Shown: piece by piece, positions 4,250 through 56,071 of the stretch
Numbering within the stretch: position 1 is the first letter of the stretch
Layout of the letters: every line of letters begins with the position of its first letter
Origin: an uncultured bacterium
Lineage (GTDB): Bacteria; Patescibacteriota; Minisyncoccia; Phycocordibacterales; DATDWN01
DNA: 64,000 nt
Reading direction: 5' to 3'
NCBI GenBank assembly: GCA_963727715.1
Contig: CAVSGX010000005.1
Coordinates: forward strand, 50,672-114,671
Position numbers and translations under genes: made by a program
The notes under the pieces: generated by a model
Databases searched by the model: none
Told to the model about the DNA's origin: nothing
The model's input: only the letters and a program-made list of their open reading frames with translations

Positions 4250-5608
4250 CTAATTTTTCATGATGATGTCTTGGGTGCCACGACGTACATCAAAACGATT
4301 TGGCTCTGGGTCAAGATGGAGAATCAGACCATCTCTACCAAATCGCATTTTTAACACATCTGCCATTTGAAAAGCTCGTTCTCGCAGTGTCGGATGAACG
4401 AATCGAGTACCGCGGAGTTCCACTAAATAAACTAAAGCGTGTAAATCACCAGTCACACGGTTTGTGGTGTTGAATCCCATACCAGTGTAGTATTGTTTGA
4501 TATCTTTTGTTGTTGGCAAGTTGTCTATGAGGACGACTTGTTCATTAATAAAAGATTTCATTTCTCCACGTAAACCTTCTCCAAGTTCGGATAAGTACCA
4601 CGGATGGAATCCGTATTTGGTGGATAGCAGTGGCATTTGTTGAGTCACGGCTCTGTGTCTTTGAATGTCGCGGAAAGAGCCAAAATCCAAAAAGAATTCA
4701 AAAGTTACATTACCACACTCTTTTATCTTTTTCGGCAACTCTGTCTTTGCCGGCCTGCTTCCCATCGCATTTTTGTATTCACGGAGTAGCGCTAAGTTGA
4801 CGTTATCAAAAAAAAGAAAATCTTCCCTCAAATCTGAATCAAAATAGTATCCCCTCATCATTTCCTTGACGTATTCTTCTGTTGCAGGGTACCTTTTGCT
4901 GGAGAAAGAACTCGGGTACTTTTCAATCAAAGCACTTTCCACTGCTTTAGCCACTTCACGCACTTCTTCAAGTGGATGATGGCGGAGCCAGAGAAGCTCA
5001 TCGGCAAATTGACGCAAATTCATATGCCAAGTCAGGTCAGTTGTCGCACCGGCCGGCAAGAAACTGCGCATAATGTCAAAAGCTCTAGCATTGATTGCCT
5101 TTTGATATACTACTTCATCCTCGCCTTTATTTATCGGAAAGCGAGACTTAAGGCTGATTTGTAACCAATCAAGACCATGAAGATAGGCCGTCCTCCACCT
5201 TTCTTGAATCTTTTCACCATCAGCTGTGCCGAGAGGATTCAGGAAAGTTTGTCTGGAGAAATCAATAAACCGAGTTGATGATTCCTGGCCGTTATAAAGT
5301 GGCCAGTCTTGAACTGCTTTCGGTACAAACATAGACACGCCTTCAATAATGACCGTAGCATTACCACAGTCACCAATAGATTTGTGTCCGTAACCTATAT
5401 AGAACTTTTCCATGAATTTTTTTGCCCCGAATTCGATCAGGGTTTTCATATGTTCAAAGAATCCACCAACAGAACGAGACTTCATGGCTTGTACCATAGC
5501 CAACTCTTCCGGTCCCAAAACGGCGCCGGTGTCTACCACAATAACTTGCCCACCGTTTCTGAGCGGACGATGAATGTGTTTCAAAGAACTTATGGAAATT
5601 ATGTCCAT
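4250..5608 (-). CDS. ThyX (Thy1)-like flavin-dependent thymidylate synthase homolog with a non-canonical active-site motif and a roughly 190-aa C-terminal extension
   Basis: GYGHKSIGDCGNATVII resembles the ThyX GHETPFEH region. W.hN.R...F...LR...E.R resembles the ThyX C-terminal helix. An ESSTRF segment aligns to ThyX SGRY, but WPL replaces the RHR triad. Confidence 0.4.
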   Translation of the reverse strand: MDIISISSLKHIHRPLRNGGQVIVVDTGAVLGPEELAMVQAMKSRSVGGFFEHMKTLIEFGAKKFMEKFYIGYGHKSIGDCGNATVIIEGVSMFVPKAVQDWPLYNGQESSTRFIDFSRQTFLNPLGTADGEKIQERWRTAYLHGLDWLQISLKSRFPINKGEDEVVYQKAINARAFDIMRSFLPAGATTDLTWHMNLRQFADELLWLRHHPLEEVREVAKAVESALIEKYPSSFSSKRYPATEEYVKEMMRGYYFDSDLREDFLFFDNVNLALLREYKNAMGSRPAKTELPKKIKECGNVTFEFFLDFGSFRDIQRHRAVTQQMPLLSTKYGFHPWYLSELGEGLRGEMKSFINEQVVLIDNLPTTKDIKQYYTGMGFNTTNRVTGDLHALVYLVELRGTRFVHPTLRERAFQMADVLKMRFGRDGLILHLDPEPNRFDVRRGTQDIIMKN

Positions 5609-15672: not shown

Positions 15673-16206
15673 ATGAAATTCACCAAAGAAAAAATCAAAG
15701 AATCTTATGACGCTCTGAAATCAGAGTTTGGTTACAAAAACAGAATGCAAGCGCCGAAAGTAGAAAAGGTTGTCGTCTCGGCCGGCGTTGGGTCATTCAA
15801 GGATAAGAAAAAAATTGAGCTGGCTCTCGATCGCTTAGCCAAGATCACCGGGCAGAAGCCGGTGCAAAAAGGGGCCAAGCAGTCCGTGGCTTCTTTCAAG
15901 GTGCGCGAAGGCGACATTGTCGGGCTACAGGTGACACTGCGTGGCGAGAGAATGTACGATTTTCTCAATCGTCTGGTCAACATCGCCCTGCCTCGAACAA
16001 AAGACTTTCGTGGCATTTCGCGCGAGGCCGTTGATGCTATGGGCAACTACACTTTAGGAATAAGAGAGCACACCATTTTCCCGGAAACAGGCGACGAGGA
16101 ACTGAAAGATGTTTTTGGTCTCTCTGTCACTATTGTCACTTCCACTCGCAACAAAAAAGAAACATTAGCTTTTCTGACTTACTTGGGTTTTCCATTTAAG
16201 AAATAA
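15673..16206 (+). CDS. rplE: 50S ribosomal protein L5
   Basis: Conserved sequence. Confidence 0.95.
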   Translation: MKFTKEKIKESYDALKSEFGYKNRMQAPKVEKVVVSAGVGSFKDKKKIELALDRLAKITGQKPVQKGAKQSVASFKVREGDIVGLQVTLRGERMYDFLNRLVNIALPRTKDFRGISREAVDAMGNYTLGIREHTIFPETGDEELKDVFGLSVTIVTSTRNKKETLAFLTYLGFPFKK

Positions 16207-16467: not shown

Positions 16468-17495
16468 TTCCTCCAATTACCCCTCAAGTAGGACAGAACT
16501 AATGTTTGAATAATAACTCATTGGCGCGCGGAAGCCAATCACTTCTCTCGGTCGGTTGTTTAGGAAGGAATGTATTTCTTGCAATTCTTCCTCAGTGACT
16601 GACTCAATATCTCTTCGTTTAGGCACAAAACATCTGATCCATCTGTTGGTGTTTTCCACCAGACCTTTTTCCCAAGAATGGTATGGATGTGTAAAATAGA
16701 TTGGCACTTGCAGGAGAGTTTCCAACTCTTTCCAACAGGTGAATGCAATATCGTTGTCTGTGGTGATGCTCTTCAATTCAACACCATGGAACAGACGGGA
16801 AAGCGCGGCACGAATAGTGTCGCGTTTTCTGTTGGGCAGTTTCCTGACCCATGTTCTTTTGGCTTGCCAATCCACAGCAACCAAAAGTACCCACGAACTG
16901 TCTTTGGAAACGATGAAATCGAGCTCAATGTGTCCTAGACCTTTTCTCTCCGGTCTGACATCAATATACTTCCTGCCATCCTGAATGTGCTTCCAATGAT
17001 TTCGTTTTCTCCCACCCTTGTGATTGTTCCAACCCCAAAAAAGCAGGTGGTTTAGACCTCTCGACTCGGCAAATTTGTATATGGCTTTGGCCGAGCAGAT
17101 GATACCCATTTCACATTCAAGATACCCGCTAATCTGCTTCGGCGACCAATGATACGGCTTGGTTAATCGTTCCACCACGAATCGACAGAGAAACGGGTCA
17201 AGCGCCACTTTCAGACACTGCTGTTTGGCTCGCCATCTTTTCATTGAAACTTTCTGCTTGGCTTTTTCCGCTTCATACACCCCATTAACACTGTGTTTTT
17301 GTATTTCTCTGCTCACAGTGTTGACACTCCGACCGAGAAATTCGGCAATTTTGCGAATGGCCGAACCGGCGCAATACATCTTTTCAATACAAAACCTCTC
17401 TTCAAAAGACAAATGATGATATTTGTTTTTCATATGACAATTAAAATTAATTTTCGACTAATGCATTAATTCTAACTGTCCTACTTCAAAGGTGG
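16468..17495 (-). mobile_element. IS30-family insertion sequence (about 1.03 kb) with imperfect terminal inverted repeats
   Basis: Terminal inverted repeats tcaagtaggacagaactaatg (16476-16500) and cattaattctaactgtcctacttca (17462-17490) flank the transposase ORF. Confidence 0.65.
16477..17433 (-). CDS. IS30-family transposase
   Basis: N-terminal HTH (AIRKIAEFLGRSVNTVSREI) plus an integrase-core DDE region. Confidence 0.85.
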   Translation of the reverse strand: MKNKYHHLSFEERFCIEKMYCAGSAIRKIAEFLGRSVNTVSREIQKHSVNGVYEAEKAKQKVSMKRWRAKQQCLKVALDPFLCRFVVERLTKPYHWSPKQISGYLECEMGIICSAKAIYKFAESRGLNHLLFWGWNNHKGGRKRNHWKHIQDGRKYIDVRPERKGLGHIELDFIVSKDSSWVLLVAVDWQAKRTWVRKLPNRKRDTIRAALSRLFHGVELKSITTDNDIAFTCWKELETLLQVPIYFTHPYHSWEKGLVENTNRWIRCFVPKRRDIESVTEEELQEIHSFLNNRPREVIGFRAPMSYYSNISSVLLEG

Positions 17496-18623: not shown

Positions 18624-19010
18624 ATGGATCCAATAGCAGATATGATTGTGCAGATAAAAAACGCTTCCGACGCAGAAAAAAAGTCGGTTGTTTTGCCGTA
18701 TTCCAAACTGAAAGTGACTATCTTAGATATTTTGGCTAAGGACGGTTTTATCAAATCTTTCAGCAAGGTCGGCAAAAAAACCATCAAATTTATTGAAGTT
18801 GTCTTAGCTTATGAAGATGACCAACCGAAAATCCACGGAGTGCAAAGGATTTCCAAGACTTCAAAGCGTGTTTACCAGAAAGCCAGAAATGTTCGTTCGG
18901 TCAAAAACGGTTTCGGCATAGCTGTCATTTCCACATCAAAAGGCATTATGTCAGACAAGGTGGCCAGAAAAGAAAAACTTGGCGGAGAAGTGCTTTTCAA
19001 AATTTGGTAA
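18624..19010 (+). CDS. rpsH: 30S ribosomal protein S8
   Basis: Conserved sequence. Confidence 0.95.
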   Translation: MDPIADMIVQIKNASDAEKKSVVLPYSKLKVTILDILAKDGFIKSFSKVGKKTIKFIEVVLAYEDDQPKIHGVQRISKTSKRVYQKARNVRSVKNGFGIAVISTSKGIMSDKVARKEKLGGEVLFKIW

Positions 19011-21092: not shown

Positions 21093-22367
21093 ATGATTCA
21101 AGATTTTTTAAACAAACTGAAACTGATTTTTCAAGACAAGATTTTGCGCAAGCGAATATTTTTTACTTTGGCGGTGCTGATTATTTTCCGTTTTCTGGCG
21201 GCCATACCGATTCCGGGCATTGACCAAGCTCGTCTGGCTCAATTTTTCTCCGGCAATGAGTTCCTCGGGATGCTCAACATTTTCTCCGGTGGTGGTTTGT
21301 CCCAGTTTTCCATTGTCATGCTTGGTGTTGTGCCATATATCACCGGCTCGATTATTATGCAACTTTTGACCGTTCTCTCACCGAAACTAAAGGCAATGTA
21401 TCAGGAAGAAGGTGAAGCCGGCCGTCGCCGATTTGCTCAATACGGGCGCTTGCTGACCGTGCCACTGGCTTTGATTCAAGGTTTCAGCTTCATTAAAATT
21501 TTGGAAAGTCAAAACGCCATTGTTCATCTGGCCGGCTCCGCTTTGATCGGCAATTTAATCATCATCACCGCCGGCTCCGTCCTTCTTATGTGGATCGGCG
21601 AATTGATTTCCGAATACGGCATTGGCAACGGCGTTTCTCTCATCATCTTTGCCGGTATCGTCTCGCGCATCCCGACCGAACTCGGCCAGCTTTTGTATGT
21701 TTTTAACACTTCCCAAATCCCGCTTTACTTGTTGTTCGTTGTTGTCGGACTTTTGGTTATTATGGGTGTGGTCATCATTACCGAAGCCGAAAGACCGATC
21801 CCAATTACTTATGCCAGACAAGTCCGCGGTAACAAAGTCTATGGTGGCACCTCAACATATCTGCCTTTGCGCATCAACCAAGCCGGCGTTATTCCGATTA
21901 TTTTTGCCGCTTCTATTTTGCTTTTCCCGCAGATGATTTTTAAGTTTCTGGCAAACAACAGCCATATCATCATTGCCAACATTTCCAAATTTGTTATGGC
22001 TATGCTGACAAACAATTACTTTTACGGCATAGCTTACTTCCTTTTGGTTTTTGTATTTACTTACTTTTACACAGCTGTTACATTTGATCCGGACCAAATT
22101 GCCACAAACCTCCAGAAAAACGGCGCCTTCATTCCCGGTGTTCGTCCGGGCAACTCCACCTCGGAATACATCTCGCGCATTTTGACTCGCCTGACTCTGG
22201 TCGGCGCGCTTTTCCTCGGCGCCATCGCTGTTTTTCCGATTATCGTCAAAAACATCACCGGCATCACAGCCATCTCCGTTGGTGGCACAGCCCTACTCAT
22301 CGTCGTTTCAGTTGTCATTGACCTCATCAAAAAAATCGACGCTCAGGTTTCTATTCGGGAGTACTAA
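21093..22367 (+). CDS. secY: Protein translocase subunit SecY
   Basis: 10-TM SecY with conserved motifs. Confidence 0.95.
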   Translation: MIQDFLNKLKLIFQDKILRKRIFFTLAVLIIFRFLAAIPIPGIDQARLAQFFSGNEFLGMLNIFSGGGLSQFSIVMLGVVPYITGSIIMQLLTVLSPKLKAMYQEEGEAGRRRFAQYGRLLTVPLALIQGFSFIKILESQNAIVHLAGSALIGNLIIITAGSVLLMWIGELISEYGIGNGVSLIIFAGIVSRIPTELGQLLYVFNTSQIPLYLLFVVVGLLVIMGVVIITEAERPIPITYARQVRGNKVYGGTSTYLPLRINQAGVIPIIFAASILLFPQMIFKFLANNSHIIIANISKFVMAMLTNNYFYGIAYFLLVFVFTYFYTAVTFDPDQIATNLQKNGAFIPGVRPGNSTSEYISRILTRLTLVGALFLGAIAVFPIIVKNITGITAISVGGTALLIVVSVVIDLIKKIDAQVSIREY

Positions 22368-22384
22368 AAACCTAGCGGAGACGG

Positions 22385-22559
22385 TGGGAGTTTCGGCCTC
22401 AAAAAATTCCACGCTGTCGCGTGGAATTTTTCTGGCCACCGGTTTGGCGACACGCCGTGCTCGGCGCGTGACCGCCAAACCGTTCGAATCCCACGCACAA
22501 AGCTTCGCTTTGCTCGCTCCTGCGGAGAGTGTGGTTCGAAGTTGGAACATTTCTAATGG
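22385..22559. repeat. Direct repeat copy A, about 170 bp. Its first 15 nt (gcggagacggtggga) duplicate the 3' end of tRNA-Ser. Contains a 10-bp hairpin terminator (22401-22432).
   Basis: Nearly identical to 24570-24735. Its first 15 nt match the tRNA 3' end at 29675-29689. Confidence 0.8.
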
Positions 22560-22625
22560 TATTCAAAAGATGATATTCTTAATCTGTGTATAACCTAATT
22601 CTGAATCAATGCTACAATAAAATAT

Positions 22626-22868
22626 ATGAAAACAGATTCTACTATAAGTATAGCTAGGTATTTATCAATGTTTTTGCTCTTTTGGTTATTTTTATTTTTT
22701 AATATTTTAACTTCTCTACCTGTAGGTTGGGGTGGGTATTCTAATCCAGAACTTGGTCTTATTTTTGAAATTCCTATATGGATATTTGTTGGTGGTTTAT
22801 ATAGTATTTTATCTTTTGTTATAATTAAAAAGGAAAACCCAATAATAATTTTCTGGTTTTATTATTGA
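22626..22868 (+). CDS. Small hydrophobic membrane protein
   Basis: ORF with two TM segments, located in island 1. Confidence 0.3.
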   Translation: MKTDSTISIARYLSMFLLFWLFLFFNILTSLPVGWGGYSNPELGLIFEIPIWIFVGGLYSILSFVIIKKENPIIIFWFYY

Positions 22869-22920
22869 TTCTGCGTCTTCATTTTATATAGATACTTATC
22901 ATAGGGCTTATCCAACAGTA

Positions 22921-23571
22921 ATGGGTTTAATAATTATTGTAGCAATGATTGTTGCATTTATTTTATCTTTAACAGCTGTTTGGAAAGATAAGATTTTACT
23001 TAAAAAATTTGTATTCAGTTTTATTGTGGTGATTTCTTGTTTGGTAGGTCTTTACACAATTTCTTTTAATTATTCTAATTATCTTGAAAATATAGACTTG
23101 GAAAAAGGGCGTCAATTTGCAAAGGGATTAGATGACCGTGAAGCAAAGGATAAACAGGATTTTGATAATGCTATAGCGACAGGTTTTAAGTTTACAGTCT
23201 CATTTAACGGTAAAATATTACAAGATGCCAATTTGTACTATAAACAAACTAAAGTAATGCAAACTAACAATATCTATATACCCTCTCCTGAGGGGGTTGT
23301 TCAACCTGTAAATGGGTATGTAAGTAGTGGAGGTAGGATGCTGCCAGGTGAATATATGTTAGCACCTGTGATTAATAAAGTAGATGGTCAGACTTTTATT
23401 TGTCCAAATTACAAAATGGAAGGGTTAATTTTTAGAGGTCCTTACTCTCTTGTAGAAGGTAAGACAACTATTGTAAATATTGATATAAATAATACTGAAT
23501 ATGAAGCTTTGTTAAAAATACAATCAGAGCAATCAAAAAATTCTGTTGGTTGTTTTCAAGAAACTTTATAA
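22921..23571 (+). CDS. Hypothetical membrane-anchored protein
   Basis: N-terminal TM helices, located in island 1. Confidence 0.35.
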   Translation: MGLIIIVAMIVAFILSLTAVWKDKILLKKFVFSFIVVISCLVGLYTISFNYSNYLENIDLEKGRQFAKGLDDREAKDKQDFDNAIATGFKFTVSFNGKILQDANLYYKQTKVMQTNNIYIPSPEGVVQPVNGYVSSGGRMLPGEYMLAPVINKVDGQTFICPNYKMEGLIFRGPYSLVEGKTTIVNIDINNTEYEALLKIQSEQSKNSVGCFQETL

Positions 23572-23911
23572 TTGGCTAGGGTCTATACCAAGATAATAGA
23601 TTTACAGAACTTGATTCAAGTACGCTTTTCCTGCTTAGTACATAACTACTACAAATCAGAATAATAATTATCAATGCAGAGAATGCGATGATAATACTGA
23701 ATCGTTTTTCTTTAATAAAGTTTTTCATGGTATTTTCGTTTTAACAAAAACTTCACAAATTTGCCAATTTATAAATAGTTATGTCAATTTTTAAGACCTG
23801 TGGATAACATAGACTTCTCATCTTGAATATGCTAATATTTTGGTAACAAATAATTCCTCGTGCGTGGGCTTCCGGATGGTTGCTCGCAAATAGCGCACGG
23901 GGTTTTGTTAT

Positions 23912-24553
23912 CTATGGAAATAAAGGACTCTCTTCTATTATTTTGTTTTTTATAATGTTGTAGTAGCTATCGTCGCCATTTTCATACTTTCGAAAAATAG
24001 CCCAACTGATAAAATCAACCGCTTGCAAACTTTTTTCTCCAGATGGAGTTTTGATAGACACCTTCATTGTCCCATTGTGATTGCTTTTTACTTGGCGGTT
24101 GAGGTAGCTTTTAAAATTTTCATTAAGAAATTTGTTTGTCTCTCTGCGCGAAGCTATCAACTCTATTTCCTTATCATTCGACACAATTTTTTTATTGTAA
24201 ATGCGATCAAGTAAAATATTGGTTACATAGTTATAAAGAACTTGTTTTTCGTCCTGCAATTTTGTAAAAACTTTTTTCTTGTTCAAATAAATAGACATTA
24301 TCGAACAATCACTTTCCGCCAATTTTTTCAGCAAGCGTTGTCTGGTAACAGGTTTTTCGTTTGTTGCATGTAATGTGCCTATTCTTCGTTTGATTTTTTT
24401 ATTTAACTGTGCGTGAATATTTTTGATAATTTTCTCGATTACTTTTTTGTTATTTTCAACAAATAAAAAAGTGATAACGAAAAAATTAGAAGTGCCTTTT
24501 TTCTTAAAATCAAATCCCAAATCTCCACTTTCATCTAAAAATATATACGCCAT
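23912..24553 (-). CDS. DUF3800-family protein
   Basis: Start motif MAYIFLDESGDLGF is typical of DUF3800. The track ORF extends into the repeat; start trimmed to this Met. Confidence 0.5.
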   Translation of the reverse strand: MAYIFLDESGDLGFDFKKKGTSNFFVITFLFVENNKKVIEKIIKNIHAQLNKKIKRRIGTLHATNEKPVTRQRLLKKLAESDCSIMSIYLNKKKVFTKLQDEKQVLYNYVTNILLDRIYNKKIVSNDKEIELIASRRETNKFLNENFKSYLNRQVKSNHNGTMKVSIKTPSGEKSLQAVDFISWAIFRKYENGDDSYYNIIKNKIIEESPLFP

Positions 24554-24569
24554 AAGGTTTTGCGGAGAC

Positions 24570-24735
24570 GGTGGGAGTTTCGGCCTCAAAAAATTCCACG
24601 CTGTCGCGTGGAATTTTTCTGGCCACCGGTTTGGCGACACGCCGTGCTCGGCGCGTGACCGCCAAACCGTTCGAATCCCACGCACAAAGCTTCGCTTTGC
24701 TCGCTCCTGCGGGGGGCGTGGGGTGAAGTTGGAAC
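24570..24735. repeat. Direct repeat copy B (att-like, same sequence as 22385-22559)
   Basis: 166 of about 170 nt are identical to copy A. Confidence 0.8.
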
Positions 24736-24765
24736 TTTTTTACTCAATACTGTATCATAGTATAT

Positions 24766-25695
24766 ATGGAAAAATTTGAAAATCTAACACCAGAGTCACC
24801 AAGAGTAGAAAGCCAGTGGCTTGAAGAACAATTCAAAAATGTAGAGATTATTGATGTTAATGGGCAAGAGGTTAAAGTTTTGGACATTATTCCACCAGAC
24901 CCAAAAATTGATGTGCCTGTGGTTATGGCTCCGGGTTATGGCACTTCGGGTCCTTTCCATATAAAAACAAATATTTTGGAGATGGTTCGTCTCGGCCGGC
25001 GAACTTTATTTATTGACGAACCACGAGGTATTGAAAATAAAATTGATGATGAAAACACGGAAGGAATACAAGAATATTTTTTGAAACAAATTTCTGCTCT
25101 CATTGGTGTCCTTGACGCAAAAGGAATTGATAAAGTTGATGTTGTTGGTAATTCAGAGGGTGGAATGTATGCGATTATCGCGGCGGACATTTACCCTGAA
25201 AGATTTAGTAATATTGTTTTATGTAATACCGGTGGAATGATTGGGGACGATTCAGCTCCAAAATTGATATATAGATTTGCTGTTGATGGACTTCGTTCGG
25301 CGGTTGATATGATGAAAAGAAAAAAGACAATGTCTGCCGGTGCTCAACAACAAATGAAAGAGGGAGTTGCCGGTTTTAATAAATATGTAATGGGCGAGCC
25401 AAAATCTTCCTATGACGAAATAAAGAGCATGGCTGGCACACAAATTCGCAATATGGTAAAAGAGGTTAAATCAGAGGGTGTTGGAATTTCAATTATTCAT
25501 ACGACAGATGACGGTGTTTTTCCTATGGCACGAGTTCAAAAAGAAACTTCACGAACTTCTCCCGACGAGGAACTTATTGTTGATGGCTTTTATTCCATAA
25601 GAGGCGGACATGGAGAGTTTTCAATAAATCCTGAACAATACACAAGACTTGCCGATGAGGCTTTATCTGCGCTGGAAGCAAAAAAGAAAAAATAA
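24766..25695 (+). CDS. Alpha/beta-hydrolase fold protein
   Basis: GNSEGG nucleophile elbow (GxSxG). Confidence 0.55.
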   Translation: MEKFENLTPESPRVESQWLEEQFKNVEIIDVNGQEVKVLDIIPPDPKIDVPVVMAPGYGTSGPFHIKTNILEMVRLGRRTLFIDEPRGIENKIDDENTEGIQEYFLKQISALIGVLDAKGIDKVDVVGNSEGGMYAIIAADIYPERFSNIVLCNTGGMIGDDSAPKLIYRFAVDGLRSAVDMMKRKKTMSAGAQQQMKEGVAGFNKYVMGEPKSSYDEIKSMAGTQIRNMVKEVKSEGVGISIIHTTDDGVFPMARVQKETSRTSPDEELIVDGFYSIRGGHGEFSINPEQYTRLADEALSALEAKKKK

Positions 25696-25986
25696 AAGGA
25701 AAAGGTGCCGAGATTTCTCCACGGCACCTGCACTGCTTCCTGATGTTTTAGTCGCCCTCTTTTTTCCTCCGTTTCCACTCTTTCCAGAGCTTCGGAGTTT
25801 CCATGAGGTTGATGATGAACATTGCCACCAAAATCAAAAAGAAAATGATTTTGCCGGCTTGAAAGAGCACAGAGAAAATCGTATGTAGCATGAATCTCAC
25901 TTTCTGCATTGATTATACACCATTACTTGTGTTTTTGTCAAGGTTTTTTACTTTTCCCAAAATATGGCGTAATGTAAAAGCCATAT

Positions 25987-26901
25987 ATGGACACCCTCAT
26001 CTCACAGCTAGACCACAAATACGAGCAATACAAAAAGAATATATCCGAGCATTTCATTGACTCCGACACTCTCGTTTTTGAGTCGGCATACGACTATTTT
26101 TGTATTACAGAAAAGCAACCAAAAATAAAAGAAATTTTAGAAAAAGATAGGCAGGATTTGGAGAAAAACAAAAAGGAAATTGTAAAGAAAAATAAGTCGT
26201 CGGAAACGCAAAAAGAATTTTTGGAAAGTGCCGAATTTAACTCGCTATCTTTCTGCTATGACGAAGTTTTGAAAGTGGTATATCTGCCGATGACTAAACA
26301 CAAAAAATCTCAAAATCCGTTATCAGAAAAAGATATTGTCGGCGATACTCAACTTTTAAGTGAAAGATTTTTGAACACAATGAATTTTTTGGTCGTGGGA
26401 TTTGTAAAGCTATGCAAAATTCCTATAAAGAAAGATGTAGAGGCCAGAACTGCTTTGTATAAAATGGCATACAATTTCAAGCGACCGAAATATCCGCTGT
26501 ATATGGAGCAGATACACAAATTGCTCGTCCCGCAACTCTTGGAAATTTACACGCAAAAGCCGGAAGTATCCGTTGTCAAAAACGCTCTACCGGTTATTTG
26601 TATTGACGACAAGAAAGGTATTTATTGCGAGTTAAACCCGAAAGCCGTGTATGCAATTTCTAGAATTAGTAAGCGGTTTAATCTCATCAAATATTTGCAA
26701 ACAAAAGGCTATTGCAAAATAGACGAATTGGCCGAATTAAAAAATCAAAAAGACACCGATACAATGAAAGCTATCACAGAAATAAATCGGTTATTCAGAA
26801 AAAATACTGGTCTAAATATTGACCTGATAAATCACTCTGACACTAGCGGATATTCGCTCAATAAAACAGAGCTGGATATAAAAATGATGCAAAGTTTTTA
26901 G
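25987..26901 (+). CDS. Hypothetical protein (island cargo)
   Basis: ORF only. Confidence 0.35.
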   Translation: MDTLISQLDHKYEQYKKNISEHFIDSDTLVFESAYDYFCITEKQPKIKEILEKDRQDLEKNKKEIVKKNKSSETQKEFLESAEFNSLSFCYDEVLKVVYLPMTKHKKSQNPLSEKDIVGDTQLLSERFLNTMNFLVVGFVKLCKIPIKKDVEARTALYKMAYNFKRPKYPLYMEQIHKLLVPQLLEIYTQKPEVSVVKNALPVICIDDKKGIYCELNPKAVYAISRISKRFNLIKYLQTKGYCKIDELAELKNQKDTDTMKAITEINRLFRKNTGLNIDLINHSDTSGYSLNKTELDIKMMQSF

Positions 26902-27009
26902 GTGGCGTTAATAACCACTTTTCCAAGACCTTGAAATAAAGGTCTTTTTGGCATGAACGCCACCCAAAGAAACAACGATTTTTCTTGTTCTGGGTGGGAG
27001 AATTAGTAT

Positions 27010-27306
27010 GTGAAAACATACAGCAAACCATTGGTCGAGAGGTGCAAAGAATATTTCCACCGTGTCCACAACACGGATATTTCGGACGACACGGCGAATG
27101 AATATTTGCGCTCGTTTGCAAAGTTGTATCTGGCTTTCGCTCGGCCAAACGGCGGGAGTCTCGGGAGCGACATAAATGTCGCGCGAGACTTCGCCGTTGC
27201 CGAGCCAGCCATTAGCAGTAGCGAGGATTTTTCCTTAATAGGTGGTTCCCGAATTCGTAATGCGGTAATTGACGATAAATTTCAGTTGGACTCAATGCAC
27301 AAATGA
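27010..27306 (+). CDS. Hypothetical protein
   Basis: ORF only. Confidence 0.25.
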   Translation: MKTYSKPLVERCKEYFHRVHNTDISDDTANEYLRSFAKLYLAFARPNGGSLGSDINVARDFAVAEPAISSSEDFSLIGGSRIRNAVIDDKFQLDSMHK

Positions 27307-27411
27307 AATTATACAGCTGTAAGGGTCTGGCCACAGAGGGTGGCATTGGTAACTTGCTGATTACCTAACATAAGAATAAAGAAGAAAAGAATAAAAATAT
27401 CTAAAAATACA

Positions 27412-28188
27412 ATGGGCTATAACAAATTTATCAAATCGGGTAATAATGTTGAGACTTACGAATATGAAAAAGACATTGTTATTCTGCGTGGTGGTAAAAA
27501 ATATCATTTTGATGATGAGGAGAAAAAAGAGATAGACAAAAATGCTGATTTGGACGAGGTGGAAGTCGGTAAGAGAATTGATAATGTCCGCAAAGCTAGT
27601 TTGGAATTTAGACGGCTTGTTTCTTCAAATTTAGATGATAAAAATTTTCCTCTTTTGCTGACTGTTACATACAAAGAAAATCAAACTGATTTGAAAAAAG
27701 TGTATTATGACCATAAACTATTTGTTCAAACTTTGAAATATACTTATGGAAAAAATCTGAAATATATCTGCGTGCCGGAATTTCAAAAAAGAGGAGCTGT
27801 TCATTTTCACGGTTTGTTTTGGGGACTGCCGGCTGGTATTCTTTTGCCGGAGCGTTTGCACGGATATTACGAAAATGCCTCTCCGACACTTTCTAAAATT
27901 TGGGACTTGGGTTTTGTTTTTCTCAAACCGACTGACGGGGACGATAAACTGTCCTCGTATCTTGCCAAGTATATGGCAAAGGCTTTTACCGACCCAAGAC
28001 TCAAACATCAAAAAGCCTACGCTTCGTCTCGCAATGTTAAACGGCCGTATGTGGTTTCCGGTATTACAAATATTTCTTTTTTGATTGATGATTATGTTGG
28101 TCTTGACGCTGTGCCGGTCAAGGAAAATAAATATCACACGACATATATGGGAGAGGCTCGGTATCGCATGTATAAAATTCCAAGTTGA
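27412..28188 (+). CDS. Rolling-circle replication initiator (HUH endonuclease, phiX174 gpA / P2 gpA-like two-tyrosine type)
   Basis: Motif I LLLTVTY, motif II VHFHGLFW (HUH), motif III YLAKYMAK (YxxKY). Confidence 0.7.
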   Translation: MGYNKFIKSGNNVETYEYEKDIVILRGGKKYHFDDEEKKEIDKNADLDEVEVGKRIDNVRKASLEFRRLVSSNLDDKNFPLLLTVTYKENQTDLKKVYYDHKLFVQTLKYTYGKNLKYICVPEFQKRGAVHFHGLFWGLPAGILLPERLHGYYENASPTLSKIWDLGFVFLKPTDGDDKLSSYLAKYMAKAFTDPRLKHQKAYASSRNVKRPYVVSGITNISFLIDDYVGLDAVPVKENKYHTTYMGEARYRMYKIPS

Positions 28189-28219
28189 ATTATTAAAATT
28201 TAAGAGTAATATCACAAAT

Positions 28220-29911
28220 ATGAAATTCATCGCCTATTATAGAAAATCAACCGAGAGCGAGGATAGACAACTTCTTTCTCTTGACGCGCAGGAAAGGGAA
28301 GCTCTGCAACTTTCGGAAAAATACAACCTCAATGTCGTCAAAACTTTCAAGGAAAGCATGTCGGCAAAGTCTGCCGGTCGTCCGCTTTTCAACGAAATGA
28401 TTAAAATGATTCAAGCCGGAAAAGCTGACGGAATTGTTTGTTGGAAATTAGATAGACTGGCTCGCAACTTCATTGACGGCGGTTTGGTTATTGATATGTT
28501 GCAACACGGTATCATTCAAGAAATCCAAACCTCCGAGGGTGTTTTTCGTCCGGGTGATGATGTTACTCTGCTGGCTTTGAAATTTGGTGTGGCAAATCAA
28601 TATAGCCGAAATTTGAGTGTTGATGTGAAGCGTGGCAACAGAGAAAAACTGGCTCATGGCGGTTGGCCGGGTCCAGCAAAGTTTGGCTACAAAAATGACA
28701 AAGCAGAAAAAACAATTGTCGTTGACCCTATCAAATCAAAATATGTCATTCGTATGTTTGAATTGTATTCCACTGGCAGTTACGGCTTCAAAGAAATTTC
28801 TCAAATTTTATTTGACGAGGGTTTGCGAACAGGCACGGGCAAAAAGTTTTTCTCCGGCAATATTCACCGACTCATGGACGAGCCATTTTACTACGGTATG
28901 ATGTTGCGAGACGGCAAACTTCACCCCGGCAATCATACACCTATTATTTCAAAAGAACTCTACGACAAAGTCCAAAATGTTTTGCACAACCGCCACCGAC
29001 CACGACCAAAAAATCATTTCTTTCCACTTCGCGGATTTATGACTTGTGAAAAGTGTGGTTGCGCTTTGACCGCTTCATTCAAAAAAGGCCACGCTTACTA
29101 TTACTGCACCAACGGAAAAGGTATTTGCTCTGAACACAAAACATATCTGCGAGAAAATACGCTATATCCCATTGTCGCAGGACTTTTTGACAAGCTAAAC
29201 ATTGACGAGGAAGCTATTGAAATGATGTATCAGTCTGCAAAAGAGGATATCGGGCTAGACGCTGAATACTCCGAGTCCATTCTGACAACCCTCAAAAGCC
29301 GTCTAAATGCTCTCACAGTCAAAGAAAGCAAACTGCTTGACGCTTTCCTTGCAGAAAGCATTACCAAAGATATTTACGACGGCAAAGCTCTTGAAATCCA
29401 AAACGAAAAAACCATACTCTCCAAACAAATATCCGATACAGAGAAAAAATCTGAAAATCTGGTTTCTACTTTGGAACCAGTCAAAAACATTTTTCTACGA
29501 GCCAGTAGAGCCAAAAAAGAATTTCTAGCCGGTGATGACCAGAAAAAGAGAGAAGTGGTAGAAACCATACTTTGGAACCTTTCCATTGAAAAGCAAAAAA
29601 TGGCTAATTACAAACTCAAAAGTCCATATTCCATACTCTCAAAACTACCTAAAAACCCTGATTTTCAGACCTTGCGGAGACGGTGGGATTCGAACCCACG
29701 AGAAGGTTACCCCTCTAACACCTTAGCAAGGTGCCGCTTTCGGCCACTCAGCCACGTCTCCAAAAAAATAAAAAAACTTACAATCACCTTACCATATCAG
29801 TGCGCAATCGTAAACGCGAAAATGTCGCGAGCGCCGGCGGAAAGCAGGGTGGCCCGAGCTTCGGAAAGGGTGGCGCCGGTGGTGGCCACATCGTCAATCA
29901 GAATGGCATAG
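28220..29911 (+). CDS. Large serine recombinase (resolvase/invertase N-terminal domain, recombinase domain and zinc ribbon)
   Basis: YYRKSTESEDRQLLSLDAQ catalytic-serine motif; recombinase domain; CEKCGC...YYYCTN zinc ribbon. The in-frame stop lies beyond the tRNA, so the true C-terminus is uncertain. Confidence 0.8.
   Translation: MKFIAYYRKSTESEDRQLLSLDAQEREALQLSEKYNLNVVKTFKESMSAKSAGRPLFNEMIKMIQAGKADGIVCWKLDRLARNFIDGGLVIDMLQHGIIQEIQTSEGVFRPGDDVTLLALKFGVANQYSRNLSVDVKRGNREKLAHGGWPGPAKFGYKNDKAEKTIVVDPIKSKYVIRMFELYSTGSYGFKEISQILFDEGLRTGTGKKFFSGNIHRLMDEPFYYGMMLRDGKLHPGNHTPIISKELYDKVQNVLHNRHRPRPKNHFFPLRGFMTCEKCGCALTASFKKGHAYYYCTNGKGICSEHKTYLRENTLYPIVAGLFDKLNIDEEAIEMMYQSAKEDIGLDAEYSESILTTLKSRLNALTVKESKLLDAFLAESITKDIYDGKALEIQNEKTILSKQISDTEKKSENLVSTLEPVKNIFLRASRAKKEFLAGDDQKKREVVETILWNLSIEKQKMANYKLKSPYSILSKLPKNPDFQTLRRRWDSNPREGYPSNTLARCRFRPLSHVSKKIKKLTITLPYQCAIVNAKMSRAPAESRVARASERVAPVVATSSIRMA
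29675..29761 (-). tRNA. tRNA-Ser (anticodon GCT), long variable arm
   Basis: Acceptor ggagacg/cgtctcc, anticodon loop ttGCTaa, T-loop ggttcgaatcc, 17-nt variable arm. Confidence 0.85.
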
Positions 29912-31635: not shown

Positions 31636-31923
31636 ATGCGAGGTATGAACACACTGCCTGAATTTTTCAAATCGATACTTTGGTCATATTCTTTTTATGA
31701 TTGCGATCCAAATAAAATGAAGAAGACCATCATTTCTCAAAGTCTAAATTATGGCTCTATAAAGCACTGGAAATGGATAAAATCTTTTTACGGAGATAAA
31801 GAAATCCTTGCTGTCCTATCCTCTATCCCGGAGACAGAAATACATTCAAAAACTAAAAAGCTGGTTGAGATTGGTTTTAATTTTAACAATTGGAACTATG
31901 CATCTAGAAGTTCTGACAGATAA
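31636..31923 (+). CDS. Hypothetical small protein, possibly the partner of the downstream AbiEii-like gene
   Basis: ORF overlaps the next gene in another frame; no recognisable domain. Confidence 0.2.
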   Translation: MRGMNTLPEFFKSILWSYSFYDCDPNKMKKTIISQSLNYGSIKHWKWIKSFYGDKEILAVLSSIPETEIHSKTKKLVEIGFNFNNWNYASRSSDR

Positions 31924-32533
31924 CACCAAAAAAGTTTTTGATAAAATTTCAAAATTTCAAAATTTGAAAGATGCTTTTTATCTTGCCGGTGGAACAGCTC
32001 TTGCGTTGCAATTAGGTCATCGCATCTCCGTTGACTTGGATTTTTTTTCAGATGAGCATATCAAAAAAACTTTTCTGTCAGACATTGAAGATTTTTTTGG
32101 ACAAACCGCGCAGGTCATAGCAAAAAGTCAAAATGAATTAACGATTATTATAAACGAAGTAAAAATCACTTTTCTGCATTATCCGTTCGCGCTTATTTAT
32201 CCATTAGAAAATAAAAATGAAATCATTCTGGCCGACTTAAAAGAAATAGCTTTAATGAAAGCCTATGCTATCGGTCGGCGACAGTCGCTGAAAGATTATA
32301 TTGATTTATACACCATTGTTTCCAGAAATTTAATGACCCTGGGTTCCATTGTGGAAAATTCAAAAAATAAATACGGAGAAGTTTTCAATGACCGTGTCTT
32401 TTTGGAGCAGTTGGTTTATATAAAAGACATTGACGACGAACCAATACAATGGATTGACAAATCTGTGTCAAAAGAAGAAATCAGAAGTTTTTTTGAAGCA
32501 GAAGTGAAAGTATATTTTAACACGCTGAAATAA
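31898..32533 (+). CDS. Nucleotidyltransferase AbiEii/AbiGii toxin-family protein
   Basis: FYLAGGTALALQLGHRISVDLDFF matches the AbiEii GGTAL...R.S.D.DF signature. Confidence 0.5.
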   Translation: MHLEVLTDNTKKVFDKISKFQNLKDAFYLAGGTALALQLGHRISVDLDFFSDEHIKKTFLSDIEDFFGQTAQVIAKSQNELTIIINEVKITFLHYPFALIYPLENKNEIILADLKEIALMKAYAIGRRQSLKDYIDLYTIVSRNLMTLGSIVENSKNKYGEVFNDRVFLEQLVYIKDIDDEPIQWIDKSVSKEEIRSFFEAEVKVYFNTLK

Positions 32534-55752: not shown

Positions 55753-55762
55753 TTTACTTGTT

Positions 55763-56071
55763 GCGGGGCCTAGACTTGCACTAGGGTTTCAAGGTTATGC
55801 TTTACCGCTACGGTTTTCACCGCTTGTCATCTTATTATGACGGAAAATTTGTGGTCTGGACTATACCATCTCCTTTTTTCAAAATAATTTGAAAGTCAGG
55901 AGTTCACCATCTAGTCTCTACACTTTTATCGCGAATAAACCGCGAATTTAGCTCGGGATTGTCCTCCATTTGGATGGATAGGATTTCCCCGAATTTGGCG
56001 AATGCGCATCTTGTTGTTTCCAACAAGAGGGCCCAACTTGAGCCTTACGAGTTACTGCTACTCCACCCCGC
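55763..56071 (-). ncRNA. rnpB: Candidate RNase P RNA (bacterial type A-like, about 310 nt)
   Basis: On the minus strand: a terminal P1 pairing gcgggg/ccccgc. GGAGGACAAUCCCGAGC resembles GAGGAAAGUCCGGGC (CR-I). GGUGAAAACCGUAGCGGUAAAG resembles GGUGAAANGGUGCGGUAAGAG (CR-II/III). GAAACCCUAG resembles GAACCCGGC (CR-V). Confidence 0.4.

What the first reader, a model, noticed from the sequence alone, without database searches (positions are those of the whole stretch)
22385..29761. Two tandem islands at tRNA-Ser(GCT): a HUH-Rep plus serine-recombinase integrative replicon, and a smaller satellite-like island
An intact tRNA-Ser (minus strand, 29675-29761) sits downstream of two direct repeats of about 170 bp (22385-22559 and 24570-24735). 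Each begins with the same 15 nt as the tRNA 3' end (gcggagacggtggga), which is an attL/attR-type arrangement.

The proximal island (24570-29690) encodes a large serine recombinase immediately beside the tRNA. It also encodes a rolling-circle initiator with all three superfamily-I motifs, including the two-tyrosine YLAKYMAK active site typical of phiX174 gpA and P2 gpA, plus an alpha/beta-hydrolase and two hypothetical proteins. There are no capsid genes, so this is plasmid-like rather than a Microviridae prophage.

The distal island (22385-24569) has no recombinase. It carries a DUF3800 protein and small membrane proteins. It may be a remnant, or a satellite mobilised in trans.

Both islands interrupt the expected secY-adk-map-infA continuation. 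Each long repeat also contains a perfect 10-bp hairpin plus T-run, which probably serves as the secY operon terminator. That implies part of the repeat is duplicated host flank.
Basis: partly seen in the sequence, partly recalled or inferred. Interest (0 to 1): 0.7.

Follow-up and report, generated by a model that had tools for sequence, protein, structure and literature searches.

The report
Tandem integrative elements at tRNA-Ser
A small plasmid-like mobile element with its own replication initiator and a serine integrase sits next to a tRNA-Ser gene, with a smaller recombinase-less module stacked behind it. It belongs to a large family of such elements in ultra-small (Patescibacteria) bacteria that I could not find described.

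Summary
An intact tRNA-Ser(GCT) lies at 29674-29761 on the minus strand. Its last 15 nt recur exactly at 22375 and 24562. Each copy heads a 181-nt repeat that is identical for its first 151 nt.

The proximal island carries a three-domain large serine recombinase (LSR) and an HUH rolling-circle Rep. Comparison with 220 related loci shows a four-gene module, c3-c2-Rep-LSR, widespread in Patescibacteria. In 57 of 58 tRNA-adjacent cases the LSR reading frame has no stop before the attachment site and runs into an antisense tRNA. At least 13 tRNA species are targeted.

The long repeat is not duplicated secY flank. A structurally conserved homologue sits beside a related element in an unrelated context (L003/L004). 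The repeat ends in a family-wide site: a few nt of the tRNA tip plus ...ACGAAGTTGGAAC. This is probably the element-side half-site.

The distal island has its own diverged copy of that site and no recombinase or Rep. It is a non-autonomous module stacked in tandem, and similar arrays recur in relatives. Whether it still moves is untested.

No empty site or circular form was found. This is a new variant of a known kind and moderately interesting.

The parts
21093..22367 (+). secY, the last host gene left of the array. Its stop codon is 7 nt before the first core copy.
   Evidence: 424-aa ORF. PF00344 SecY on the identical protein in L001. The same junction is seen in a second assembly.
22375..22389 (+). 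Core copy A1: 15 nt identical to the tRNA-Ser 3' end.
22375..22520 (+). Unit U1: core A1 plus a structured segment. It holds hairpin hp1 (22402-22431), hp2 (22440-22482), a T-loop-like stretch TTCGAATCCCACG, and hp3 (22498-22512).
   Evidence: Folds far better than shuffles (z -5.3 and -5.8). Identical to U2. Homologue in L003/L004.
22521..22548 (+). Site M1: TG + CGGAGAGTGTGGTTCGAAGTTGGAAC, a degenerate tRNA tip plus the family-conserved motif. Proposed left recombination site of the distal module.
22626..22868 (+). Distal cargo: 80-aa hydrophobic ORF.
   Evidence: ORF. No family hit.
22921..23571 (+). Distal cargo: 216-aa ORF with a hydrophobic N-terminus.
   Evidence: ORF. No family hit.
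23576..23728 (-). Distal cargo: 50-aa hydrophobic ORF. Not confirmed as a gene.
23912..24553 (-). Distal cargo: DUF3800 protein. Its ATG is 8 nt from core copy A2.
   Evidence: PF12686 E 6e-14 and phrog_9243. More than 4000 homologues, the top 120 at 65-88% identity, many of them Patescibacteria.
24562..24707 (+). Unit U2: core copy A2 (24562-24576) plus hairpins (hp1 at 24589-24618). Identical to U1.
24708..24735 (+). Site M2: TG + CGGGGGGCGTGGGGTGAAGTTGGAAC. Proposed left recombination site of the proximal element. Its TTGGAA also scores as a -35 hexamer upstream of the hydrolase gene.
24766..25695 (+). Proximal cargo: alpha/beta-hydrolase (esterase/lipase-like).
   Evidence: PF00561 at 33.2 bits; phrog_789
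25987..26901 (+). c3: conserved accessory protein of the family. Helical N-domain plus a C-terminal winged-helix DNA-binding domain.
   Evidence: Cluster c3 is present in 19 loci. 19 database homologues. Model pLDDT 79; the C-terminal domain matches the CadC and ToxR DNA-binding domains locally (Foldseek prob 0.99 and 0.90, but E 0.26 and 0.83; no PDB match at E<=0.001).
27010..27306 (+). c2: small conserved protein of the family (GTG start).
   Evidence: The sequence matches cluster c2 members, for example L007 (KEYFHRVH.TDISDDTANEYLRSFAKLYLAFARPNGG).
27412..28188 (+). Rep: HUH rolling-circle initiator with HFHGLFW and YLAKYMAK.
   Evidence: PF23343 E 4.6e-18; phrog_3419 E 1.5e-26. H131, H133 and Y187 invariant and Y183 at least 90% conserved across 41 homologues.
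28220..29911 (+). Large serine recombinase. Homology to relatives ends at 29671. There is no stop before the att site, so the ORF runs antisense through the whole tRNA to 29911.
   Evidence: PF00239, PF07508, PF13408; phrog_95 E 5e-78. SPbeta integrase alignment. Read-through.
29674..29761 (-). tRNA-Ser(GCT), the intact target gene. Core copy at 29674-29688. The conserved TG at the junction is 29673-29674.

Best explanation
**What it is**

The region 22375-29674 is an array of site-specifically integrated modules stacked at the 3' end of tRNA-Ser(GCT). The host is probably a Patescibacteria bacterium; this is inferred from where the relatives occur.

The tRNA-proximal module (about 24.56/24.71-29.67 kb) is an autonomous integrative replicon of a widespread family. 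The family core is c3 (a winged-helix DNA-binding protein), c2 (a small protein), Rep (an HUH rolling-circle initiator) and a large serine recombinase (LSR). Here the core carries an esterase-like cargo gene.

**How it works (inferred)**
1. The LSR recombines an element site, which overlaps the 3' end of its own reading frame, with the tip of the tRNA gene. The tRNA stays intact.
2. After excision the circle is maintained or amplified by Rep-driven rolling-circle replication.
3. On the tRNA side, the half-site contains the universal T-loop sequence TTCGAAC.
4. On the element side, the half-site is the family-conserved ...TGGnACGAAGTTGGAAC, in which the GGAAC motif sits about 5-7 bp further out. 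That is the spacing difference expected between attB and attP half-sites of serine integrases.

**The distal module**

The distal module (22.38/22.52-24.56 kb) has its own diverged copy of the element-side site. It has no recombinase and no Rep. It is a non-autonomous module joined in tandem, which is the CIME-type 'accretion' pattern. It could move only with, or by means of, the neighbour's LSR.

**The 146-nt unit**

The structured unit that heads both modules is element-borne DNA. It may once have been a tRNA trailer with its terminator, later captured by the element. Today its first hairpin probably also terminates secY transcription.

**Shown and inferred**
- Shown: the sequence anatomy, the domain content, and the family-wide conservation.
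- Inferred: the crossover position, excision, replication, and any movement of the distal module.
For: **Repeats and tRNA:**

**Domains and catalytic motifs:**

**Family**
- At least 554 Rep homologues.
- Rep relatives occur in dozens of Patescibacteria genomes.
- Rep is followed by an LSR on the same strand in 100 of 220 loci.
- Among 72 non-duplicate loci with a complete LSR ORF, 58 abut an antisense tRNA. In 57 of those the stop codon lies inside or beyond the tRNA.
- Targets are Gln, Glu, Ser, Tyr, Leu, Asn, Trp, Asp, Pro, Lys, Arg, Ile and Val.
- The c3-c2-Rep-LSR order is conserved.

**Conserved left-end site**
- It is found on the Rep strand, 2-9 kb upstream of Rep, in at least 15 loci.
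- Its left few nt match the tip of whichever tRNA is targeted. Mean shared run is 5.3 nt against 3.9 nt in mismatched pairings.
- It is absent from LSR-less circular relatives.
- A native-looking tRNA terminator hairpin sits just left of it in L021 and L054.

**Unit is element-borne:**

**Tandem arrays recur**
- Arrays of left-end sites with no recombinase between them: L032/L166 (4 sites), L175 (3), L021, L016 and L080 (2 each).
- Tandem complete LSR elements: L037, L049, L083, L150.

**Rep clade replicates small circles:** 1.4-2.1 kb Rep-only circular contigs and 4.9-5.4 kb circular contigs; of the latter, L091 and L092 were tested and carry a Zot-like gene.

**Foreign base composition:**
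Against: - No empty site and no circular junction was found. None of the best 80 metagenome loci is a circular contig with both Rep and LSR. The only other assembly of this organism breaks inside the repeat.
- The tRNA-like left parts of M1 and M2 differ from the functional tRNA tip at 2-4 positions. They cannot be fresh copies of a displaced tip.
- The exact 15-nt copies (A sites) argue for a crossover 147 nt further left. In L003 the unit must have arrived with mobile DNA. So it is unresolved which of the two sites the LSR uses.
- No replication origin or nick site was identified.
- No recombination directionality factor was identified.
- Serine integrases normally do not recombine attP with attL or attR, so how tandem arrays form needs an extra assumption.
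- DUF3800 homologues occur in many non-mobile contexts. The distal module was not seen elsewhere as a unit.
Confidence: 0.7

Rival explanations
1. The LSR crosses over inside the exact 15-nt core (A sites at 22375, 24562, 29674). Each island then runs from core to core, and the 146-nt structured unit is the true left end (P' arm) of both islands. The conserved ...GAAGTTGGAAC site about 150 nt inside would be an internal cis element, such as a promoter -35, a Rep origin or a secondary att site.
For: - Three exact 15-mers, with none expected by chance.
- In L003/L004 the unit sits beside the related element in a different host context, and a TG lies at its outer edge. So there the unit travelled with mobile DNA.
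- A partial dyad, ATTTTCAGACC ... GGCCTCAAAAAT, surrounds the core in the reconstructed circle junction (read).
- TTGGAA in M2 scores as a -35 hexamer.
Against: - Most relatives have no exact repeat of 11 nt or more of the tRNA end. They do have the M-type site directly at their left boundary, next to tRNA-terminator-like hairpins.
- The part of M left of the conserved motif co-varies with the target tRNA. An origin or promoter would not be expected to do that.
- A1 is preceded by TA, not the TG seen at every other junction.
- The sequence right of the A core lacks the conserved outer motif.
Confidence: 0.3
2. The distal island is only an inert, decayed remnant of an older element. It lost its Rep-LSR module after a newer element integrated at the tRNA. 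It no longer moves, either in cis or in trans.
For: - No recombinase or Rep.
- Much lower GC than its neighbour, suggesting a different history.
- Its cargo family (DUF3800) is widespread outside mobile contexts, and the module was not seen elsewhere.
- Reviews of tandem integrated elements report that partners are 'generally decayed elements' (PMC5704250).
Against: - It keeps a well-formed family-type left site (M1), with the conserved 11-mer intact amid diverged flanks.
- It shares a 151-nt stretch that is 100% identical with its neighbour, which implies recent exchange.
- Short recombinase-less modules bounded by such sites recur in several relatives. This pattern is too regular for random decay.
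Confidence: 0.35
3. The long repeat is duplicated host flank: the native secY terminator region copied by the integration events.
For: - The hairpin plus T-run at 22402-22436 lies 35 nt after the secY stop, on the right strand to terminate it.
Against: - Conservative site-specific recombination does not duplicate flanks.
- The second copy follows a minus-strand gene start, not secY.
- A homologous unit, with the same hairpin order, conserved linkers and loops, and different stems, is found next to a related element far from any secY in L003/L004.
- L017 has an analogous unit in three copies around another Rep-LSR element at tRNA-Tyr.
Confidence: 0.05
4. The array is a defective filamentous (inovirus-like) prophage. 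The small membrane proteins of the distal island would be coat proteins, and the Rep-LSR part would be the replication and integration module of one phage genome.
For: - The Rep falls in the ORF2/G2P family.
- Rep relatives at 39-47% identity sit in circular 4.9-kb contigs with a Zot-like morphogenesis gene.
- Inoviruses that use serine recombinases, and inoviruses in CPR bacteria, have been reported (PMC6813254).
- The distal island encodes three small hydrophobic ORFs.
Against: - No Zot/pI-like protein was found in either island by Pfam, PHROGs or fold search.
- The conserved family module c3-c2-Rep-LSR has no recognisable structural gene in 40 or more loci.
- The two islands are separated by a full att-like junction and differ strongly in GC.
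Confidence: 0.07

Closest known systems
Integrative and mobilizable elements (IMEs) and actinomycete AICEs such as pSAM2
   Same: - Small chromosomal elements integrated site-specifically at the 3' end of tRNA genes.
- They excise as circles and replicate by a rolling-circle initiator. Pfam gives a sub-threshold RepSA (pSAM2) hit for this Rep.
- Some use serine recombinases (PMC5704250; PMC3218068, listed).
   Different: - No relaxase, coupling protein or FtsK-like transfer gene is recognisable.
- The core is only four genes, about 3.7 kb.
- The host phylum is Patescibacteria.
- The att site overlaps the end of the recombinase ORF.
CIME-ICE/IME accretion (ICESt1/ICESt3-type tandem arrays)
   Same: A recombinase-less module bounded by att sites sits in tandem with an autonomous element at the same tRNA or gene end. 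Composite excision is possible in principle (PMC5704250).
   Different: - Known cases use tyrosine integrases, whose reconstituted site stays a substrate. Here the enzyme is a serine integrase, for which attP x attR/attL reactions are normally forbidden.
- The modules here can be as short as 0.4-2.5 kb.
Large serine integrases of temperate phages (SPbeta, phiC31, Bxb1, A118)
   Same: - Same three-domain architecture and catalytic motif. The best solved relative is SPbeta integrase (E 7e-10).
- The proposed half-site logic (the outer motif shifted outward in attP relative to attB) follows the published model (PMC3783163, listed; the application to this element is my inference).
   Different: - It is linked to an RCR Rep in a 4-5 kb element rather than a phage.
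- It targets the extreme 3' tip of many different tRNA genes.
- The ORF lacks a stop before att, so the C-terminal tail depends on the integration state.
Integrated inoviruses with RCR Rep and serine recombinase (Roux et al. 2019)
   Same: Rep of the same broad family. Integration by S-rec or Y-rec at tRNAs, and presence in CPR, have been reported (PMC6813254). Circular relatives with a Zot-like gene exist.
   Different: No morphogenesis ATPase or recognisable coat genes are present, so membership fails on the defining marker (pI).
Integration-dependent immunity of mycobacteriophages / SSV-type integrases (attP inside a gene)
   Same: The attachment site lies inside a coding sequence, so integration changes the C-terminus of the encoded protein. 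This comparison rests on my own knowledge and was not checked in a paper here.
   Different: In those systems the split gene is a repressor or a tyrosine integrase, and the functional consequence has been demonstrated. Here the effect of the tail change (+79 aa integrated, +16 or +32 aa circular) is unknown.

Membership tests
Large serine recombinase (serine integrase) | N-terminal resolvase catalytic domain with a serine nucleophile in a YxRxS context | tested here: met
   PF00239 E 2.4e-17. AYYRKSTE aligns to GYLRRSRQ of SPbeta integrase.
Large serine recombinase (serine integrase) | Recombinase domain plus zinc-ribbon domain C-terminal to the catalytic domain | tested here: met
   PF07508 at 47.8 bits and PF13408 at 28.2 bits, both above their cut-offs. 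phrog_95 integrase E 5e-78.
Large serine recombinase (serine integrase) | Catalyses attP x attB recombination at a 2-bp crossover | not testable with these tools
   Only inferred, from a TG dinucleotide conserved at junctions.
HUH rolling-circle Rep (Pfam REP_ORF2-G2P) | Pfam model above the gathering score | tested here: met
   65.8 bits against 27.8
HUH rolling-circle Rep (Pfam REP_ORF2-G2P) | HUH metal-binding motif and catalytic tyrosine(s) | tested here: met
   H131, H133 and Y187 invariant and Y183 at least 90% conserved in 41 homologues
HUH rolling-circle Rep (Pfam REP_ORF2-G2P) | A cognate origin with a nick site on the element | tested here: inconclusive
   Structured conserved DNA exists at the left end. 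The one family-wide motif tracks the LSR, not the Rep.
tRNA-targeting integrative element | Intact target tRNA with a direct repeat of its 3' end at the far boundary | tested here: met
tRNA-targeting integrative element | Empty site or circular junction observed | tested here: not met
   None among 220 Rep-related loci (the genome, metagenome and Rep-based viral scans) or in the second assembly. Raw reads could not be searched.
Inovirus (filamentous phage) prophage | pI/Zot-like morphogenesis ATPase | tested here: not met
   No hit in Pfam or PHROGs for any island protein. The c3 fold is helical plus winged-helix. Zot-like genes are seen only in LSR-less circular relatives.
Microviridae prophage | Major capsid protein F / jelly-roll capsid | tested here: not met
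   No capsid family hit
CIME (cis-mobilizable element) in an accretion | Bounded by att sites, lacks recombination and transfer genes, in tandem with an autonomous element | tested here: met
   The distal island is bounded by A1/M1 and A2/M2 and has no recombinase or Rep.
CIME (cis-mobilizable element) in an accretion | Excises and transfers together with the neighbour | not testable with these tools
   Needs reads or an experiment.
Phage satellite (PICI/P4/PLE-like) | Own integrase plus helper-exploiting genes (primase/Rep, capsid redirection, packaging) | tested here: not met
   The distal island has none.
Integron cassette array | IntI tyrosine recombinase with attI, and cassettes ending in attC hairpins | tested here: not met
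   The recombinase is a serine integrase. The modules begin with a linear conserved half-site rather than an attC. This is a resemblance in layout only.

The most novel reading that the evidence does not exclude
The Rep-LSR elements of Patescibacteria may run an integron-like, serine-integrase-driven cassette system at tRNA genes.
- Short recombinase-less modules, each headed by its own copy of the conserved element-side half-site, would be captured, stacked and re-mobilised in trans by the tRNA-proximal autonomous element.
- The LSR's att-spanning reading frame gives a different C-terminal tail in the integrated and circular states. That tail could serve as a built-in switch for directionality or stability.
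- The LSR family's use of the universal T-loop sequence as its outer recognition motif would explain easy retargeting among at least 13 tRNA species.
Probability: 0.15. Interest if true: 0.8.

Novelty: new variant of a known kind. Interest (0 to 1): 0.55.

Why it matters
- **Mobile DNA in Patescibacteria.** These bacteria have tiny genomes and few described mobile elements. A 4-5 kb integrative rolling-circle replicon family, present in dozens of their genomes and targeting many tRNAs, would be a major part of their mobilome and a natural starting point for genetic tools.
- **Compact serine integrases.** They have a recognisable, apparently modular target logic: a variable acceptor-stem part plus the universal T-loop part. 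That is of interest for integrase engineering.
- **Annotation.** The 'C-terminal extension' of these recombinases is antisense tRNA sequence. The repeats next to secY are element DNA, not an operon terminator.

Tried and rejected
- **Rfam on the repeat.** Gathering and E<=10 thresholds gave only terminator-like sub-threshold hits to Leu_leader. It is not a known RNA family.
- **Exact repeats in relatives.** I searched for exact direct repeats of 11 nt or more of the tRNA end in relatives, to delimit the elements. Most had none, so this did not give boundaries.
- **M motif as Rep origin.** I looked for it in 23 LSR-less circular relatives. Only 3 weak matches (3-4 mismatches out of 17) turned up, so the idea was rejected.
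- **IMG/VR scan for GGNACGANGTTGGAAC.** It returned 120 loci, none with a Rep or LSR relative. These were chance matches.
- **Metagenome and genome scans for a circular Rep+LSR contig or an empty site.** None was found.
- **Exact-protein look-ups for the host locus.**
  - The SecY and Rep look-ups each read one short Logan contig. The SecY contig ends in the repeat.
  - The ComF-like gene is not on record.
- **c3 as a divergent Zot or capsid.** Rejected on the structure model.
- **PADLOC on island proteins.** No defence-system hit.
- **PDB sequence search with the Rep profile.** No hit.
- **Tracing the distal module through DUF3800 homologues.** The homologues lie in unrelated contexts and no M sites are nearby.
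- **One literature search** failed on a term-length error.

Full report
**1.

ARAGORN and Rfam place an intact tRNA-Ser(GCT) on the minus strand at 29674/5-29761. The reverse complement of its last 15 nt, GCGGAGACGGTGGGA, occurs exactly three times in the window: at 22375, 24562 and 29674. Shuffles allowing 2 mismatches gave a mean of 0.06 matches and never 3.

The first two copies each head a 181-nt direct repeat at 22375-22555 and 24562-24742, 96% identical. The first 151 nt are identical, and divergence starts after ...CTCGCTCCTGCGG.

Each copy contains a perfect 13-bp hairpin with an A-run before it and a T-run after it (I1). Two further hairpins follow. Both strands fold much better than shuffles, with z of -5.3 and -5.8. 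No Rfam family fits.

**2. Gene content**

The proximal island encodes, all on the plus strand:

| Coordinates | Product | Evidence |
|---|---|---|
| 24766-25695 | alpha/beta-hydrolase | |
| 25987-26901 | 304-aa protein, here called c3 | |
| 27010-27306 | 98-aa protein, here called c2 | |
| 27412-28188 | HUH Rep: PF23343 at 65.8 bits (cut-off 27.8); phrog_3419 | |
| from 28220 | large serine recombinase: Resolvase, Recombinase and Zn_ribbon_recom domains; phrog_95 E 5e-78 | |

- In an alignment of 41 Rep homologues, the HxH histidines and Y187 are invariant and Y183 is at least 90% conserved.
- The LSR's closest solved relative is SPbeta integrase. The YxRxS catalytic segment aligns.
- c3 has no family hit. 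Its model (pLDDT 79) has a helical N-domain and a C-terminal winged helix. The winged helix matches the CadC and ToxR DNA-binding domains locally (Foldseek probability 0.99 and 0.90), but no PDB match reached E 0.001. c3 is therefore not a capsid and not a Zot-type ATPase.
- The distal island has a DUF3800 gene on the minus strand (23912-24553) and three small hydrophobic ORFs. It has no recombinase or Rep and no PADLOC hit.
- GC content is 24-36% in the distal island, 31-48% in the proximal and 42-50% in the flanks.

**3. The proximal element belongs to a large family**

- The Rep has at least 554 homologues.
- Scans of genomes, metagenomes and viral contigs returned 220 loci with a Rep relative. 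The close ones (44-83% identity) are nearly all Patescibacteria: Taylor-, Campbell-, Nomura-, Zambryskibacteria, Paceibacterota and others.
- In 100 loci an LSR follows Rep within 1.3 kb on the same strand.
- Clustering the neighbouring ORFs shows a conserved order, c3-c2-Rep-LSR. An alternative minus-strand gene (c5) sometimes replaces c3. Cargo is variable and includes DNA methyltransferases.
- I found no paper describing this family. Known analogues exist, so the kind is known: IMEs and AICEs with RCR initiators, and inoviruses with serine recombinases, including in CPR.

**4.

The window's LSR ORF has no stop codon before the attachment site. Homology to relatives runs to 29671, 3 nt before the tRNA end. 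The frame then reads antisense through the whole tRNA to 29911.

This is general. Among 72 non-duplicate loci with a complete LSR ORF, 58 abut an antisense tRNA. In 57 of those the stop codon lies inside or beyond the tRNA.

Targets are:

| Target | Loci |
|---|---|
| Gln | 24 |
| Glu | 11 |
| Ser | 5 |
| Tyr | 4 |
| Leu | 3 |
| Asn, Trp, Asp | 2 each |
| Pro, Lys, Arg, Ile, Val | 1 each |
| no tRNA | 14 |

The element's att site therefore overlaps the 3' end of the recombinase gene, and the C-terminal tail depends on the integration state. The tail is +79 aa when integrated, +16 aa in a circle closed at M2, and +32 aa in a circle closed at A2. Whether this matters functionally is unknown.

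**5. What the long repeat is**

It is not duplicated secY flank. nhmmer finds a homologue only in L003/L004, which carry the closest sampled elements with both ends present (Rep 80% and LSR 73% identical). There it lies at the left end of the element, in a host context unrelated to secY.

The two versions share three things:
- the same order of hairpins;
- conserved linkers (CTGGSCACCGG; CCGTTCGAATYCCC..ACGCA);
- conserved loops (YGTC; TGCT).

Their stem sequences differ but still pair. L017 has an analogous unit in three copies around a Rep-LSR element at tRNA-Tyr. So the unit travels with mobile DNA.

On the minus strand the unit reads like a tRNA 3' trailer ending in a terminator. It also contains T-arm-like and acceptor-like fragments. 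My inference is that it is a once-captured tRNA flank. In its present position its first hairpin probably does terminate secY transcription, but that role is secondary.

**6. A second, family-wide site**

The last 28 nt of each repeat are TG + CGGAGAGTGTGGTTCGAAGTTGGAAC (22521-22548) and TG + CGGGGGGCGTGGGGTGAAGTTGGAAC (24708-24735). They match a motif found on the Rep strand, 2-9 kb upstream of Rep, in at least 15 other loci. The motif is TG + a few nt + (C)GTCTGGKACGAWGTTGGAAC.

- The 11-mer with up to 1 mismatch occurs 33 times on the Rep strand and 11 times on the other strand.
- The nucleotides just after the TG match the tip of whichever tRNA that element targets: GCTGG for Gln, GTGCRCC for Tyr, GCGGAG for Ser. 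The mean shared run is 5.3 nt, against 3.9 nt when sites are paired with the wrong tRNA.
- In L021 and L054 a native-looking tRNA terminator hairpin lies immediately to its left.
- The motif is missing from the 23 LSR-less circular relatives.

This is what an attL looks like: host arm, short shared core, conserved element-side half-site.

Compare the tRNA side (CGGAGACGGTGGGA-TTCGAAC) with the element side (CGGAGAGTGTGG-TTCGAAG-TTGGAAC). The outer GGAAC-type motif sits about 5-7 bp further out in the element site. That is the spacing rule described for serine-integrase attP versus attB half-sites (PMC3783163). Applying it here is my inference. It would also explain why the family retargets so easily: the outer motif on the host side is the universal T-loop.

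**7. The unresolved point**

The window therefore has two kinds of candidate left junction per island:
- the exact 15-mer (A sites);
- the M sites, 147 nt further in.

The M model fits the family at large. The A model fits the exactness of the 15-mers and the fact that in L003 the unit must have come in with mobile DNA.

A reconciling reading is that this sub-lineage captured the unit and can use either site. L017, where a solo unit sits between an LSR end and the real tRNA, looks like the footprint of inner-site excision. I cannot decide this in silico. The parts list gives both sites.

**8. The distal island**

- Its M site is a diverged version of the proximal one. The 11-mer is conserved and the flanks are about 70% identical. 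It is therefore a separate module and not a copy.
- It lacks any recombinase or Rep.
- Arrays of two to four M sites with 0.4-2.5 kb of unrelated cargo and no recombinase between them recur in L032/L166, L175, L021, L016 and L080. Tandem complete LSR elements occur in L037, L049, L083 and L150.
- The layout matches accretion of a CIME with an autonomous element (PMC5704250). That pattern is so far known for tyrosine integrases.
- I could not show that the distal module moves. DUF3800 homologues (top hits 65-88% identical) are abundant, many of them in Patescibacteria, in varied and partly chromosomal contexts with no M sites. The module was not found elsewhere.

**9. Replication**

Rep relatives at 31-47% identity sit on circular contigs of 1.4-2.1 kb that carry only Rep. 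They also sit on circular contigs of 4.9-5.4 kb; the two tested, L091 and L092, carry a Zot-like gene. The clade therefore does initiate replication of small circles. For the integrated family no origin was identified, and no circular Rep+LSR contig was recovered.

**10. Context**

Beyond the tRNA lie a ComF-like phosphoribosyltransferase, pilM, an AbiEii toxin and a type IV pilus cluster. Removing the islands would therefore not restore secY-adk-map-infA. The only other assembly of this organism (Logan ERR11594402) shows the same secY-core junction and breaks inside the repeat.

**11. Verdict**

This is a real, well-formed integrative rolling-circle/serine-integrase element, stacked with a non-autonomous module at tRNA-Ser. 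The kind is known. The four-gene family, its att-in-ORF layout, its conserved half-site and its recurrent recombinase-less arrays in Patescibacteria appear to be undescribed. I rate it a new variant of a known kind, with interest of about 0.55.

Noticed in passing
window 55760-56075 (minus strand): A group I intron (Rfam RF00028, 55.2 bits, at 55841-56050) appears to interrupt the anticodon loop of a tRNA-like gene. The 5' exon reads ...GCGGGGTGGAGTAGCAGTAACTCGTAAGGCTCA and the 3' exon ends ...CTAGGCCCCGCA. The acceptor resembles an initiator tRNA-Met. ARAGORN did not call it.
   Followed up: partly
window 16477-17433 (minus strand): An IS30-like transposase (HTH_38 + rve) sits inside the ribosomal-protein operon, between rplE (15673-16206) and rpsH (18624-19010), on the opposite strand.
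   Followed up: no
window 31808-32533: An AbiEii-type nucleotidyltransferase toxin (PF08843) lies between pilM and the rest of a type IV pilus cluster (pilB 34628, pilT 36666, pilC 37876, pilin 39776).
   Followed up: no
L185, L186, L188-L190, L194, L195, L200, L201, L205, L209, L217, L219: Circular metagenome contigs of only 1.4-2.1 kb (terminal overlaps of 68-127 nt). A Rep 31-36% identical to the window's is the only sizeable gene. These are very small Rep-only replicons.
   Followed up: partly
L091, L092 (also L176, L178, L179, L182): Circular 4.9-5.8 kb contigs with a Rep relative (34-47% identical) and no LSR. In the two I tested, L091 and L092, a Zot-like ATPase gene lies directly upstream of Rep. 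These are probably tiny inovirus-like genomes.
   Followed up: partly
L032/L166 5634-7470; L175 2620-6310: Arrays of three or four copies of the conserved left-end site, spaced 0.4-2.5 kb apart. Between them lie mostly minus-strand genes of unknown function (NYN, DKNYY and endonuclease/phosphatase domains in some) and no recombinase. The arrays lie upstream of a single Rep-LSR element at tRNA-Gln.
   Followed up: partly
L017 7905-8082, with copies at about 260-403 and 2700-2857: A roughly 150-nt structured unit (z -4.9) is present three times. One copy lies between the LSR end (which carries a 21-nt exact copy of the tRNA-Tyr 3' end) and the real tRNA-Tyr.
   Followed up: partly
L016 about 5545-5565: An inverted copy of the tRNA-Gln 3' end (TCGAATCCTAGTCCGGC) lies about 70 nt left of that element's left-end site. 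Unexplained.
   Followed up: no
window 22370-22389 vs 29669-29688: The 5 nt left of the first core copy (ACCTA) resemble the 5 nt left of the tRNA-side copy (ACCTT, the end of the LSR ORF). This gives a 20-nt match with one mismatch. It may be a remnant of an older recombinase gene end next to secY, or chance.
   Followed up: no
window 23912-24553 and P0146-P0264: This DUF3800 protein has more than 4000 database homologues at E<=1e-10. The top 120 are 65-88% identical to it, and the named ones are Patescibacteria lineages. Contexts range from restriction-modification/RadC neighbourhoods to housekeeping regions. Conservation is unusually high for a gene of unknown function.
   Followed up: partly
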